Assembly: GCA_037128175.1 (NCBI GenBank)
Contig: JBAXWY010000051.1
Span: 1-18,944, forward strand
From: Methanothrix sp.
GTDB lineage: Archaea > Halobacteriota > Methanosarcinia > Methanotrichales > Methanotrichaceae
DNA: 18,944 nt
Direction: 5' to 3'
A model generated the notes under the pieces. The model had not been told where the DNA came from. It did not search any database and saw nothing but the letters and a program-made list of their open reading frames with translations. Shown one piece after another: positions 1 to 1,010 of this stretch. Numbering within the stretch: position 1 is the first letter of the stretch; each line of letters begins with the position of its first letter. The translations under genes and the position numbers were made by a program.

Positions 1-724
1 CTTCCATCTGGGCGATCTCAGCCTCGTGGTGAGGGAAGATCAGGTCCATAGCTCCGCCATGGATATCGTACTGCGCTCCGAAGTAGGTCTCGGTAATAGC
101 CGTATCCTCGATATGCCATCCGGGCCGACCTTTGCCCCAGGGCGAGTCCCAGGTCACCTCAACTCCATCTTGCCGCTTCTTCCAGAGCGAGAAGTCTCCC
201 GGATTTTTCTTGGTCGGGTCCGGCTCAATTCTGTGCTTCATTAGATCCTCAACACTCTGATGCGACAGCTTGCCAAAATCCTGGAAACGAGACTCATCGA
301 AATAGATGCCGCTCTGTGTCTCATAAGCAAAGCCCTTCTCGATCAATCTCTCGATCTGGCTGATGATCTCTGGGACATGCTCGGTGGCGCGAGCATAATA
401 GTTGACGTTTGTGACGCCCAGCGCATGCATGTCCTCCAGGTATCTCTGCTCGAACCTCCTGGCCAGCGACCGGGGCGATGCACCCGCCTCTGCAGCTCTC
501 TGGATGATCTTGTCGTCTACATCGGTGATATTCTGCAGGTAGAAGACGCTAAAGCCCTTGTATTTGAGATAGCGTGCCACCACATCAAAGGCGATGTAGG
601 TTCTGGCATGACCTATATGCGAATTGTCATAGACAGTGGGACCGCAGACAAATAAATTGATGCGATTATTATGTATGGGCTGGAAATTCTCTTTATTTCC
701 AGTCATGGTACTTTGGATTTTCAT
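1..724 (-). CDS. cysS: Cysteinyl-tRNA synthetase (class I), N-terminal ~241 aa; runs off the left edge
   Basis: Manual translation of the minus strand from ATG at 724: MKIQSTMTG...LFVCGPTVYDNSHIGHARTYIAFD...NITDVDDKII...ARATEHV...KKNPGDFSLWK...WDSPWGKGRPGWHIEDTAI...YDIHGGAMDLIFPHHEAEIAQME. It contains the CGPTVY, HIGH, DIHGG and FPHHE motifs. The ORF track misses it because there is no stop codon in the window. Confidence 0.98.
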   Translation of the reverse strand, partial: MKIQSTMTGNKENFQPIHNNRINLFVCGPTVYDNSHIGHARTYIAFDVVARYLKYKGFSVFYLQNITDVDDKIIQRAAEAGASPRSLARRFEQRYLEDMHALGVTNVNYYARATEHVPEIISQIERLIEKGFAYETQSGIYFDESRFQDFGKLSHQSVEDLMKHRIEPDPTKKNPGDFSLWKKRQDGVEVTWDSPWGKGRPGWHIEDTAITETYFGAQYDIHGGAMDLIFPHHEAEIAQME

Positions 725-726
725 GA

Positions 727-797
727 GGCCGGGGTCGGGAGTCGAACCCAATTCTCGCGGTCTGCAGCCGCGCACTTAGCCGGTCAGTCACCCCGGC
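727..797 (-). tRNA. tRNA-Cys (anticodon GCA), atypical; CCA not encoded
   Basis: Minus strand folds as GCCGGGG-TG-ACTG-ACCGGCT-AAGT-G-CGCGG-CT GCA GA-CCGCG-AGAA-TTGGG-TTCGACT-CCCGA-CCCCGGC-C. It has a perfect 7-bp acceptor stem, a 5-bp anticodon stem, a TTCGA T-loop and G37. Confidence 0.92.
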
Positions 798-875
798 ACC
801 TCTGCTTCTCATCTATTGCATAAGATGCACTAATACTTACGGATTGCGGCAATGAACCCCCCTGGCAAAAAGTCG

Positions 876-953
876 TCTCCGTTCGTTCGTCCTTCGTGCG
901 CTCTCGCCTCTGCGGTTGTATTCCGTAACCGCCTTGGTTTAATTATTCAGCTA
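876..953. repeat. Copy A of a ~75-bp dispersed intergenic element (CTCTG-type ~9-mer iterations + AT-rich block)
   Basis: tctccgttcgttcgtccttcgtgcgctctcgcctctgcggttgtattccgtaaccgccttggtttaattattcagcta aligns end to end with 14111-14188. Confidence 0.85.
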
Positions 954-1010
954 CGAATGCATTCGCCTTATTTTTCTCTATAATTGTACACGGTATAAAT
1001 TTCCTGCACC

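What the first reader, a model, noticed from the sequence alone, without database searches (positions are those of the whole stretch)
722..800. tRNA-Cys(GCA) with a C73 discriminator and non-canonical core, directly upstream of cysS
Seen: after the 7-bp acceptor stem (GCCGGGG/CCCCGGC) the next base is C, then TC-ATG. The D-stem opens with A10-U25, the D-loop is short, and the 15/48 positions read as C and A. Known: U73 and the GCA anticodon are the main identity elements for both CysRS and SepRS, and C73 is characteristic of prokaryotic tRNA-His. Some Methanosarcinales carry both Cys pathways plus several tRNA-Cys isoacceptors. Inference: this may be a private isoacceptor for the adjacent CysRS that SepRS ignores (a natural orthogonal pair), an anticodon-shifted tRNA, or a tRNA-like regulatory leader. 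All stems remain paired, which argues against simple decay.
Basis: partly seen in the sequence, partly recalled or inferred. Interest (0 to 1): 0.78.

Follow-up and report, generated by a model that had tools for sequence, protein, structure and literature searches.

The report
Cysteine tRNA with C73 beside cysS
This methane-making archaeon carries, two bases in front of its cysteine-charging enzyme gene, a second, intact cysteine tRNA whose key recognition base is C instead of the usual U; tRNA and enzyme seem to have changed together, a kind of pairing already noted briefly in print for other methanogens.

Summary
Window 727-797 (-) is a 71-nt tRNA-Cys(GCA) with discriminator C73. Two bases (TC) separate it from the ATG of cysS.

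The genome is a Methanotrichaceae MAG. It also has SepRS, SepCysS and a canonical U73 tRNA-Cys.

C73 is not an error. All 48 cysS-linked tRNAs read in Methanotrichaceae loci have it, as do 10 of 11 in Methanobacteriaceae. The cloverleaf shows compensatory changes.

All 36 cysS-positive genomes among 101 family genomes carry the tRNA. SepRS is in 97 of 101.

One otherwise invariant CysRS tyrosine (E. coli Tyr152) tracks the linked discriminator: F with C73, N with G73, I/V with A73.

Best reading: a co-inherited, co-transcribed tRNA/CysRS module that SepRS probably ignores. Strict two-way orthogonality is doubtful, because F-type CysRS occurs with only U73 tRNAs in four genomes.

Non-U73 tRNA-Cys in SepRS methanogens is already in print (PMC8762117). 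This is a new member of a known kind, with some new detail.

The parts
727..797 (-). tRNA-Cys(GCA), 71 nt. It has G37, a G13.A22 mismatch, a 4-nt variable region and the T-loop UUCGACU. CCA is not encoded.
   Evidence: ARAGORN. Rfam RF00005 48.4 bits. Covariation: 100% of 440 cells paired, 8 of 20 pairs with double changes.
727..727 (-). Discriminator base C73 (G on the + strand).
   Evidence: Direct reading. C73 in all 48 cysS-linked tRNAs read in Methanotrichaceae loci (8, 37, 3). No variant was listed at 727 in four RNA-library runs, three of which cover it.
725..726 (-). Two-base spacer (TC) between the discriminator and the cysS start codon.
   Evidence: The spacer is 1-5 nt (mostly 2) in the Methanotrichaceae cassettes with a recognisable start.
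2..724 (-). cysS, N-terminal 241 codons. The gene runs off the contig and continues in frame on G000:C84:1-750, about 472 codons in all.
   Evidence: TIGR00435 positions 1-241 on C51 and 225-463 on C84. 55-nt contig overlap. Frame-1 open ORF on C84. Pfam tRNA-synt_1e 302 bits.
275..277 (-). Codon 150 (TTT, Phe) of CysRS. It aligns with E. coli CysRS Tyr152 in the motif (D/E)-Y-G-K-L-S.
   Evidence: Y in 66 of 66 CysRS that are U73-linked or unlinked and lie outside the C73 clade. F in 24 of 25 C73-linked, N in 5 of 5 G73-linked, I/V in 5 of 5 A73-linked.
824..852 (-). Conserved promoter-like element TTGCCGCAATCCGTAAGTATTAGTGCATC, 27-55 nt upstream of the tRNA 5' end. It contains a TATA-like GTATTAGT.
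   Evidence: Alignment of 40 distinct upstream regions; 80% consensus TTGCCGC.A.C...A..TATT.GTG. Promoter function is inferred, not shown.

Best explanation
This is a working tRNA-Cys isoacceptor with a C73 discriminator. It belongs to a two-gene module: one promoter-like element, the tRNA, two bases, then cysS.

The module was inherited, and exchanged between Methanobacteriaceae and Methanotrichaceae, as a unit. It sits in a host whose ancestral route to Cys-tRNA is SepRS plus SepCysS acting on a separate, canonical U73 tRNA-Cys.

The CysRS of the module has adapted to the altered discriminator. An otherwise invariant tyrosine of the connective-polypeptide region (E. coli Tyr152) is Phe here.

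The C73 tRNA lacks U73, G15, A47 and A59. It is therefore probably not a substrate of SepRS or SepCysS, and the cell probably keeps a CysRS-only tRNA pool beside the SepRS pool. Insulation is probably one-way, because the Phe-type CysRS likely also accepts U73.

Only two bases separate C73 from the ATG, so cysS must be transcribed through the tRNA. A tRNase Z cut after C73 would make the tRNA 3' end and an almost leaderless cysS mRNA in one step.

What is shown: the gene anatomy, its conservation and covariation, co-occurrence with cysS, the residue/discriminator correlation, and the presence of both pathways.

What is inferred: who charges what, co-transcription and processing, and a direct contact between residue 150 and N73.
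For: 1. It is a real tRNA.
- In 22 aligned relatives, 440 of 440 stem cells pair, 8 of 20 pairs carry double changes, and 0 of 500 shuffles reach this.
- GCA and G37 are invariant.

2. C73 is conserved.
- All 8 Methanotrichaceae loci.
- All 37 further 71-nt cysS-linked copies called tRNA-Cys.
- All 3.
- 10 of 11 Methanobacteriaceae loci; the exception, L034, has U73.

3. Both routes are present in this genome.
- SepRS 760 bits, SepCysS 550 bits, and one cysS split over two contigs.
- A second tRNA-Cys with U73. U73 holds in all 30 genus loci read.

4. Linkage, in one sample of 101 family genomes.
- cysS in 36 of 101.
- The tRNA/junction DNA in 39 of 101, including all 36 cysS-positive genomes.
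- SepRS in 97 of 101.
- U73-type tRNA in 81 of 101.

5. Tree.
- C73-linked CysRS of Methanobacteriaceae and Methanotrichaceae form one clade (SH-aLRT 99).
- This clade spans two classes of archaea, so the pair moved together.

6. Co-evolution.
- Of 69 columns at least 90% conserved among 66 U73-linked or unlinked CysRS, only one is replaced in all three non-U73 groups. It is Y150, and the replacements are F, N and I.
- The U73 revertant L034 has Y again.

7. The same layout recurs. It is SepRS plus a U73 tRNA plus a cysS-linked non-U73 tRNA.
- It is found in all 5 G73/A73 genomes tested.
- It is found in both C73 Methanobacterium genomes tested.

8. Co-transcription.
- There is no room for a promoter in 2 nt.
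- A conserved promoter-like motif lies upstream of the tRNA.
- RNA-library contigs of three runs from three studies bridge the junction with at least 31 nt on each side: X18 606-795, X19 596-797, X20 521-803. This is a weak hint only.

9. Identity elements.
- Passages of PMC9976931 and PMC8762117 name U73, G15, A47 and A59 as elements for, or shared with, SepRS.
- The same passages name U73 as a determinant for SepCysS.
Against: - No charging data exist. All assignments of enzyme to tRNA are inference.
- Phe at the tracking site is not tied to C73 alone. Two Methanobrevibacter genomes have F-type CysRS of the same clade, no SepRS (best hit 69.5 bits) and only a U73 tRNA-Cys by my pattern search.
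- Two genus-g10 Methanotrichaceae genomes have F-type cysS behind a truncated tRNA remnant, and only U73 tRNAs were found.
- One C73-linked CysRS (L026) has Y.
- The pattern search can miss tRNAs with a different anticodon loop or T-loop.
- Only the missing A47 and the non-U73 base are common to all linked tRNAs. The Methanobacterium C73 tRNAs keep G15 and A59.
- The SepRS identity set comes from other methanogens.
- I could not verify from coordinates that the Tyr152 equivalent touches N73. Its location in the acceptor-binding CP domain is recalled, not tested.
- The RNA-library contigs may derive from contaminating DNA, and a contig across two genes does not prove one transcript.
Confidence: 0.68

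Rival explanations
1. C73 is a tolerated, neutral variant. CysRS of this clade has relaxed discriminator reading, SepRS and SepCysS also cope, and both enzymes use both tRNAs. The gene linkage only reflects shared descent, and there is no functional partition.
For: F-type CysRS occurs with only U73 tRNA-Cys in four genomes. L026 pairs Y with C73. The review notes that archaeal SepCysS accepts a G73 tRNA in vivo (PMC8762117 passage).
Against: - The discriminator departed from U at least twice, and three different bases are found, in CysRS lineages of SepRS-bearing methanogens. Each departure comes with replacement of the same invariant Tyr.
- The linked non-U73 tRNA was not found in the two genomes without SepRS.
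- C73 is kept in all 48 Methanotrichaceae copies read.
Confidence: 0.2
2. The tRNA-shaped sequence serves mainly as a leader or processing signal for cysS expression and is not used in translation. The signal would be an RNase P or tRNase Z entry site that creates a leaderless mRNA, or a sensor of charging.
For: The spacer is 1-5 nt in the Methanotrichaceae cassettes. In genus g10 the tRNA 5' half is lost, yet the T-arm, the 3' acceptor strand, C73, TC and ATG are kept.
Against: The anticodon GCA, G37 and all four stems are maintained by compensatory change. In Methanobacteriaceae the same tRNA lies 32-148 nt from cysS. An orphan copy without cysS exists in G067.
Confidence: 0.06
3. The tRNA has histidine-like identity. 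With C73 and an acceptor stem like that of tRNA-His, it would receive G-1 from the Thg1-like enzyme and be charged by HisRS, or it descends from tRNA-His by an anticodon change.
For: - Only two tRNAs in the genome have C73: His and this one.
- Their acceptor stems differ only at pair 7:66. Some relatives carry GCCGGGA/UCCCGGC, which is identical to this genome's tRNA-His stem.
- A Thg1-like gene is present (65.9 bits), and the tRNA-His gene does not encode G-1.
Against: - The body of the tRNA is that of the other cysS-linked tRNA-Cys genes, which carry A73, G73 or U73 in other lineages.
- It is always tied to cysS.
- Histidine at cysteine codons would be harmful.
Confidence: 0.03
4. It is a sequencing or assembly artefact, or a decaying pseudogene.
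For: - The locus lies near contig breaks.
- Degenerate extra copies exist in relatives: L128 with anticodon GTA, L129 with ACG in place of ATG and a cysS with in-frame stops, L126 with a frameshift.
Against: Identical or near-identical copies occur in dozens of independent assemblies. Pairing is perfect. cysS is intact across the contig overlap.
Confidence: 0.01

Closest known systems
Non-U73 tRNA-Cys with altered CysRS in SepRS-using methanogens. C73 in some Methanobacterium, G73 in Methanospirillum and Methanoregula, A73 in Methanolobus and Methanocella. Source: PMC8762117 Discussion, citing Perona, Rauch and Driggers 2018. I saw passages of the review; the book chapter is not held.
   Same: - Non-U73 discriminator.
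- SepRS and CysRS coexist.
- CysRS is changed where it meets the acceptor end.
- The orthogonality idea is the same.
- My tree puts the Methanotrichaceae CysRS in one clade with the Methanobacteriaceae C73 type.
   Different: - Methanothrix and Methanosaeta are not named in that paper (0 occurrences).
- The passages seen do not mention gene linkage, the 2-nt junction, or the single residue that tracks N73.
- The chapter, or supplements I could not open, may cover these points.
Methanosarcina mazei tRNA-Cys isoacceptors preferred differently by SepRS and CysRS (Hauenstein and Perona 2008, as summarised in PMC9976931 and PMC8762117; the original paper is not held).
   Same: Two routes to Cys-tRNA in one cell, with a partial division of tRNA substrates.
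   Different: There the isoacceptors all have U73 and differ in the tRNA core. Here the main identity base itself differs, and the tRNA is fused to the synthetase gene.
Two PylRS/tRNA-Pyl pairs in one archaeon (HMET1). [quoted passage not shown] 2022, as described in a PMC9499178 passage).
   Same: A natural pair of synthetase/tRNA systems for the same amino acid in one cell, separated by N73 and a small change in the enzyme.
   Different: That case was tested biochemically and involves two homologous enzymes. Here the two enzymes are unrelated (class I CysRS and class II SepRS) and nothing has been tested.
Mitochondrial 'tRNA punctuation' of polycistronic transcripts, and haloarchaeal tRNA-like elements in front of leaderless mRNAs (both recalled, from no call).
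   Same: A tRNA abuts a coding region, so tRNA 3' processing would define the mRNA 5' end.
   Different: Here it is a single tRNA/synthetase module in a methanogen chromosome. Processing is inferred only.

Membership tests
tRNA (Rfam RF00005) | Cloverleaf that matches the covariance model above the gathering score. | tested here: met
   48.4 bits against 29, full length 1-71. ARAGORN agrees.
tRNA (Rfam RF00005) | Stems maintained by compensatory change among homologues. | tested here: met
   22 sequences, 440 of 440 cells paired, 8 of 20 pairs with double changes, 0 of 500 shuffles as high.
Canonical tRNA-Cys | GCA anticodon, with G37. | tested here: met
   Both are invariant in 22 of 22 relatives.
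Canonical tRNA-Cys | U73 discriminator, the major identity element for CysRS, SepRS and SepCysS (passages of PMC8762117 and PMC9976931). | tested here: not met
   C at window 727. The genome's other tRNA-Cys (C81:12-83) has U73.
Canonical tRNA-Cys | Charged with cysteine and used at UGU/UGC codons. | not testable with these tools
   Needs aminoacylation assays or tRNA-seq.
Non-U73 tRNA-Cys/CysRS pairs of SepRS methanogens (PMC8762117, citing Perona 2018) | The genome has SepRS, SepCysS and CysRS. | tested here: met
   760 bits, 550 bits, and a split cysS (320 + 208 bits).
Non-U73 tRNA-Cys/CysRS pairs of SepRS methanogens (PMC8762117, citing Perona 2018) | A tRNA-Cys with a discriminator other than U, beside a U73 tRNA-Cys. 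| tested here: met
Non-U73 tRNA-Cys/CysRS pairs of SepRS methanogens (PMC8762117, citing Perona 2018) | Accompanying substitutions in the acceptor-binding region of CysRS. | tested here: inconclusive
   The Y-to-F change at the E. coli Tyr152 equivalent tracks N73. That this residue lies at the acceptor end is recalled, not measured.
Non-U73 tRNA-Cys/CysRS pairs of SepRS methanogens (PMC8762117, citing Perona 2018) | Functional separation (orthogonality) from SepRS/SepCysS. | not testable with these tools
   Indirect evidence only. The tRNA lacks U73, G15, A47 and A59. F-type CysRS with only U73 tRNAs argues against two-way separation.
tRNA-His | GUG anticodon. | tested here: not met
   The anticodon is GCA.
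tRNA-His | C73 with G-1. | tested here: inconclusive
   C73 is present. Position -1 in the gene is T. Post-transcriptional G-1 addition cannot be tested; a Thg1-like gene exists.
tRNA-punctuated (co-transcribed and processed) tRNA-mRNA unit | The tRNA abuts the ORF, with no room for its own promoter or ribosome-binding site. | tested here: met
   2-nt spacer. The first ATG is the true start by N-terminal homology to solved CysRS.
tRNA-punctuated (co-transcribed and processed) tRNA-mRNA unit | One transcript spanning both genes, cut at the tRNA 3' end. | tested here: inconclusive
   RNA-library contigs of 3 runs bridge the junction. These are contigs, DNA carry-over is possible, and no ends were mapped.

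The most novel reading that the evidence does not exclude
The tRNA(C73)-cysS unit is a self-contained, laterally mobile decoding module.
- A single transcript is cut once by tRNase Z after C73. That cut yields both the private tRNA and a leaderless synthetase mRNA, so the two are made in a fixed ratio.
- C73, together with the loss of A47, makes the tRNA invisible to the host's SepRS/SepCysS.
- A one-residue switch in CysRS (Tyr to Phe, Asn or Ile/Val) retunes the enzyme to whichever discriminator the module carries.

The cell would then run two chemically separate Cys-tRNA pools, one fed by free cysteine and one by phosphoserine plus sulfide. The Tyr152-equivalent position would be a simple natural dial for building orthogonal CysRS/tRNA pairs.
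Probability: 0.25. Interest if true: 0.7.

Novelty: new member of a known kind. Interest (0 to 1): 0.45.

Why it matters
U73 is treated as a near-universal identity mark of tRNA-Cys. Lineages that change it show how a synthetase and its tRNA can drift together without breaking the code.

This case adds a whole family (Methanotrichaceae, important acetate-using methanogens) to the few groups noted in print.

It shows that the tRNA and cysS move as one cassette between archaeal classes.

It also points to a single CysRS residue that changes with each discriminator (Y/U, F/C, N/G, I or V/A). That is a directly testable rule and could help engineer orthogonal pairs for genetic-code expansion.

The 2-nt junction offers a clean natural example of tRNA processing defining an mRNA 5' end in an archaeon.

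The central idea is already published as a suggestion, so the gain is in detail and testability, not in kind.

Tried and rejected
- Sequencing error or pseudogene: rejected on conservation.
- Mobile-element attachment site: considered because C18:1-55 repeats the tRNA 5' part. The two copies also share the upstream promoter-like motif, and no integrase or transposase lies nearby (Pfam). I read it as a second cassette copy or a strain branch, not an att site.
- Similarity of the tRNA to other tRNAs of the genome by global alignment: uninformative, because long tRNAs score highest. Dropped.
- BLAST with the Methanobacterium C73 tRNA to find further tRNA-Cys genes: it found only T-arm fragments. 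Replaced by a pattern search.
- Read laying. All four runs are RNA-library contigs, not reads, so no ends, strands or levels can be told. Stretches without cover (for example 186-481 and 815-851) say nothing. No DNA run was laid, because the cap is one call, so the depth test for a collapsed second cassette copy could not be made. The runs' habitats (lake, freshwater, sediment, wetland, ice metagenomes) were not used as evidence.
- Literature. Searches for an experimental test of C73 tRNA-Cys, for Tyr152 of CysRS (0 papers), for Methanothrix with CysRS or SepRS (none holds Methanothrix) and for tRNA-led leaderless mRNAs in archaea (listing only, nothing on this case) found no such report in the held library.
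- PMC5424206 has no mention of discriminators.
- The Perona 2018 chapter and PMC2494925 are not held. Supplements are closed and may list these tRNAs.
- Complex prediction, structure prediction and fold search were not used. None of them can place RNA, so none could test the Tyr152-N73 contact.
Full report
WHAT IS THERE

Window 727-797 on the minus strand is a 71-nt tRNA with anticodon GCA. ARAGORN finds it, and so does Rfam RF00005 at 48.4 bits against a gathering score of 29.

Read on the minus strand, the acceptor stem is GCCGGGG/CCCCGGC. The next base (window 727) is C. Then come TC and the ATG at 724-722.

The ATG opens a CysRS frame. Pfam tRNA-synt_1e scores 302 bits and TIGR00435 matches positions 1-241. 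Its first residues, MKIQST, align with the N-termini of solved CysRS structures. The first ATG is therefore the real start, and the spacer is two bases.

The frame runs off the contig. Contig C84 overlaps the start of C51 by 55 nt, and its frame-1 open ORF carries TIGR00435 positions 225-463. Codon phase is continuous, so cysS is intact at about 472 codons.

The 15/48 combination varies among relatives.

THE HOST

The genome has 2.96 Mb in 98 contigs at 50.8% GC. Its CysRS is 95-76% identical to those of Methanotrichaceae, Methanothrix and Methanocrinis records.

It encodes:
- SepRS (760 bits).
- SepCysS (550 bits).
- One cysS.
- Two tRNA-Cys genes. One is the C73 gene. The other, C81:12-83, is canonical with U73, G15, a 5-nt variable region with A47, and A59.

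That canonical tRNA has U73 in all 30 genus loci read (one spurious long-intron call in L158 was ignored).

CONSERVATION AND LINKAGE

C73 was found in:
- All 8 Methanotrichaceae loci from the public genome collection.
- All 37 further cysS-linked 71-nt copies called tRNA-Cys in family genomes.
- All 3 more.
- 10 of 11 Methanobacteriaceae loci. The exception, L034, has U73.

The spacer to the start codon is 1-5 nt, mostly 2, in Methanotrichaceae. It is 32-148 nt in Methanobacteriaceae.

In an alignment of 22 of these tRNAs, 440 of 440 stem cells form standard pairs and 8 of 20 pairs show changes on both sides. None of 500 shuffles reach this, and slid controls pair at 29-48%.

One sample of 101 family genomes gave these counts:

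| Feature | Genomes of 101 |
|---|---|
| cysS | 36 |
| tRNA/junction DNA | 39 (includes all 36 cysS-positive genomes) |
| SepRS | 97 |
| U73-type tRNA | 81 |

The three tRNA-positive, cysS-negative genomes are:
- G067, with an orphan copy (see below).
- G023, with a contig-edge fragment.
- G021, a weak partial hit (E 6e-4).

CysRS is therefore an accessory gene in this family, and it comes with its own tRNA.

THE ENZYME HAS CHANGED WITH THE tRNA

A tree of 84 CysRS puts all C73-linked enzymes of Methanobacteriaceae and Methanotrichaceae in one clade (SH-aLRT 99). The G73-linked enzymes of Methanoregula and Methanospirillum form another (SH-aLRT 100).

I then sampled the class. This found cysS-linked tRNA-Cys genes with A73 in five genomes of two Methanosarcinaceae genera. 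The five form their own clade (SH-aLRT 100).

I scanned the alignment of 104 CysRS. There are 69 columns at least 90% conserved among the 66 enzymes that are U73-linked or have no linked tRNA. Only one of these is replaced in all three non-U73 groups.

That column is residue 150 of this CysRS. It aligns with E. coli Tyr152 in the motif (D/E)-Y-G-K-L-S. Counts at this column:

| Group | Residue at the column |
|---|---|
| U73-linked or unlinked, outside the C73 clade | Y in 66 of 66 |
| C73-linked | F in 24 of 25 |
| G73-linked | N in 5 of 5 |
| A73-linked | I in 4, V in 1, with a one-residue insertion |

The window's codon is TTT (275-277). L034, the U73 revertant inside the C73 clade, has Y again. 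Its sister L026 has Y with C73.

[quoted passage not shown] That this residue lies in the acceptor-binding connective-polypeptide domain is my recollection. I could not measure its distance to nucleotide 73.

IS THE PAIR ORTHOGONAL?

From the SepRS side, probably yes. Review passages name the anticodon, U73 and m1G37 as shared determinants. They name G15, A47 and A59 as weaker elements, or elements specific to SepRS, and U73 as a determinant for SepCysS.

This tRNA keeps GCA and G37 but has C73, C15, no position 47 and C59. Across all linked tRNAs, the constant differences from the canonical ones are the non-U73 base and the missing A47.

The same three-part layout is SepRS plus a U73 tRNA plus a cysS-linked non-U73 tRNA. 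It recurs in all 5 G73/A73 genomes tested and in both C73 Methanobacterium genomes tested.

From the CysRS side, probably not strictly.
- Two Methanobrevibacter genomes have a CysRS of the C73 clade with F, no SepRS (best 69.5 bits), and only a U73 tRNA-Cys by my pattern search.
- Two genus-g10 Methanotrichaceae genomes have an F-type cysS behind a truncated tRNA remnant, and only U73 tRNAs were found.

The Phe enzyme therefore very likely accepts U73. I read the system as insulated one way: a CysRS-only tRNA beside a shared or SepRS-served tRNA.

EXPRESSION

Two bases cannot hold a promoter or a ribosome-binding site. A conserved element, TTGCCGC.A.C...A..TATT.GTG, lies 27-55 nt upstream of the tRNA (window 824-852). 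It is seen in 40 distinct upstream regions. It looks like an archaeal TATA/BRE region with an extra conserved TTGCCGC.

I infer one transcript, with RNase P making the tRNA 5' end and tRNase Z cutting after C73. That cut would leave a cysS mRNA with a 2-nt leader.

Contigs from RNA libraries of three runs in three studies span the junction with at least 31 nt on each side: X18 606-795, X19 596-797, and X20 521-803 and 521-782. Two of them stop at 795 and 797, the tRNA 5' end. These are contigs, DNA carry-over is possible, and no DNA run was laid. This is a weak hint only.

No run shows a variant at position 727.

RIVALS

- Neutral relaxation with no partition remains possible (0.2).
- A pure leader function is unlikely, given full tRNA covariation and the long spacers in Methanobacteriaceae.
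- A histidine-like identity is worth one experiment. Only tRNA-His and this tRNA have C73 in the genome, and their acceptor stems differ at one pair. The tRNA-His gene lacks an encoded G-1, and a Thg1-like gene is present. But the tRNA body and its cysS linkage say cysteine.
- An artefact is excluded.

WHAT IS KNOWN

PMC8762117 (2022), citing a 2018 book chapter, states the following. Some Methanobacterium have a C73 tRNA-Cys. Methanospirillum and Methanoregula have G73. Methanolobus and Methanocella have A73. CysRS is mutated in its acceptor-binding region. The two systems may be orthogonal.

The paper does not name Methanothrix or Methanosaeta. I found no experimental test in the held library. 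The chapter and the supplements were not available to me.

VERDICT

This is a new member of a known kind.

New details are the family-wide cassette, the 2-nt junction, transfer of the cassette between classes, and a single residue that tracks the discriminator. Interest is moderate.

Noticed in passing
window 866-960: A dispersed intergenic repeat of about 95 nt lies between the upstream gene and the tRNA promoter region. Its core is TCGTCTCCGTTCGTTCGTCCTC..G.GCTCTGCG.CTCTGCGGTT. The 34-nt core has 20 copies with at most 6 mismatches in this genome. In all but one of the four RNA-library runs, contigs match only 871-904 and then run on into unlike sequence. Nature unknown (MITE-like element or small RNA).
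   Followed up: partly
G000:C18:1-55 against window 749-803; window 1-55 against G000:C84:1-55: Contig C18 begins with 55 nt identical to the tRNA 5' part plus 6 nt upstream. It then diverges but keeps the promoter-like motif, and its upstream flank matches the cassette context of relatives G051 and G092. The genome, or the population behind the MAG, therefore holds a second cassette copy or a second insertion context. The cysS gene itself is broken over two contigs.
   Followed up: partly
L128 (G061:C5), L129 (G017:C68), L126 (G092:C1), L121 (G026:C5): Several relatives carry a second, decaying cassette. L128 has anticodon GTA and a disturbed acceptor stem. L129 has ACG in place of the ATG, and its cysS has in-frame stops. 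L126 and L121 have frameshifted cysS. Other genomes (G019, G004, G092, G100) hold two or more apparently intact cassettes of two sequence types.
   Followed up: partly
L257 = G067:C94:1-400: An orphan C73 tRNA-Cys (Rfam 53.4 bits) sits at a contig start, followed directly by CCA and with no cysS downstream. No cysS was found in that genome (90% complete). An encoded CCA is unusual here. It could be chance, or the trace of a retro-copy or rearrangement.
   Followed up: no
L261 = G010:C46:5150-6750 (also G023): In genus g10 the linked tRNA has lost its 5' half. The T-arm, the 3' acceptor strand, C73, TC and the ATG of an intact F-type cysS remain. The kept half may still serve cysS expression.
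   Followed up: partly
G000:C42:15548-15621 and G000:C59:3394-3696: tRNA-His has acceptor stem GCCGGGA/UCCCGGC with C73. This differs at one pair from the C73 tRNA-Cys and is identical to the stem of the tRNA-Cys in some relatives. Its gene has T at -1, and a Thg1-like gene is present. How the G-1-adding enzyme and HisRS avoid the C73 tRNA-Cys is an open question.
   Followed up: partly
L026 and L034 (Methanobacteriaceae): These are sister CysRS genes. L026 has Tyr with a C73 tRNA and L034 has Tyr with a U73 tRNA. This looks like a stepwise reversal: enzyme first, tRNA second.
   Followed up: no
one search hits in genera g8 and g5 (for example G022:C1:802085-802190): The canonical tRNA-Cys of some family genera matches in two pieces about 20-25 nt apart. 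This suggests an intron in that gene.
   Followed up: no
G090:C14:79803-81212, G056:C1:806678-808021, G092:C1:159018-160184: cysS copies with a single in-frame TAG. They are probably pseudogenes or assembly errors. Not examined.
   Followed up: no
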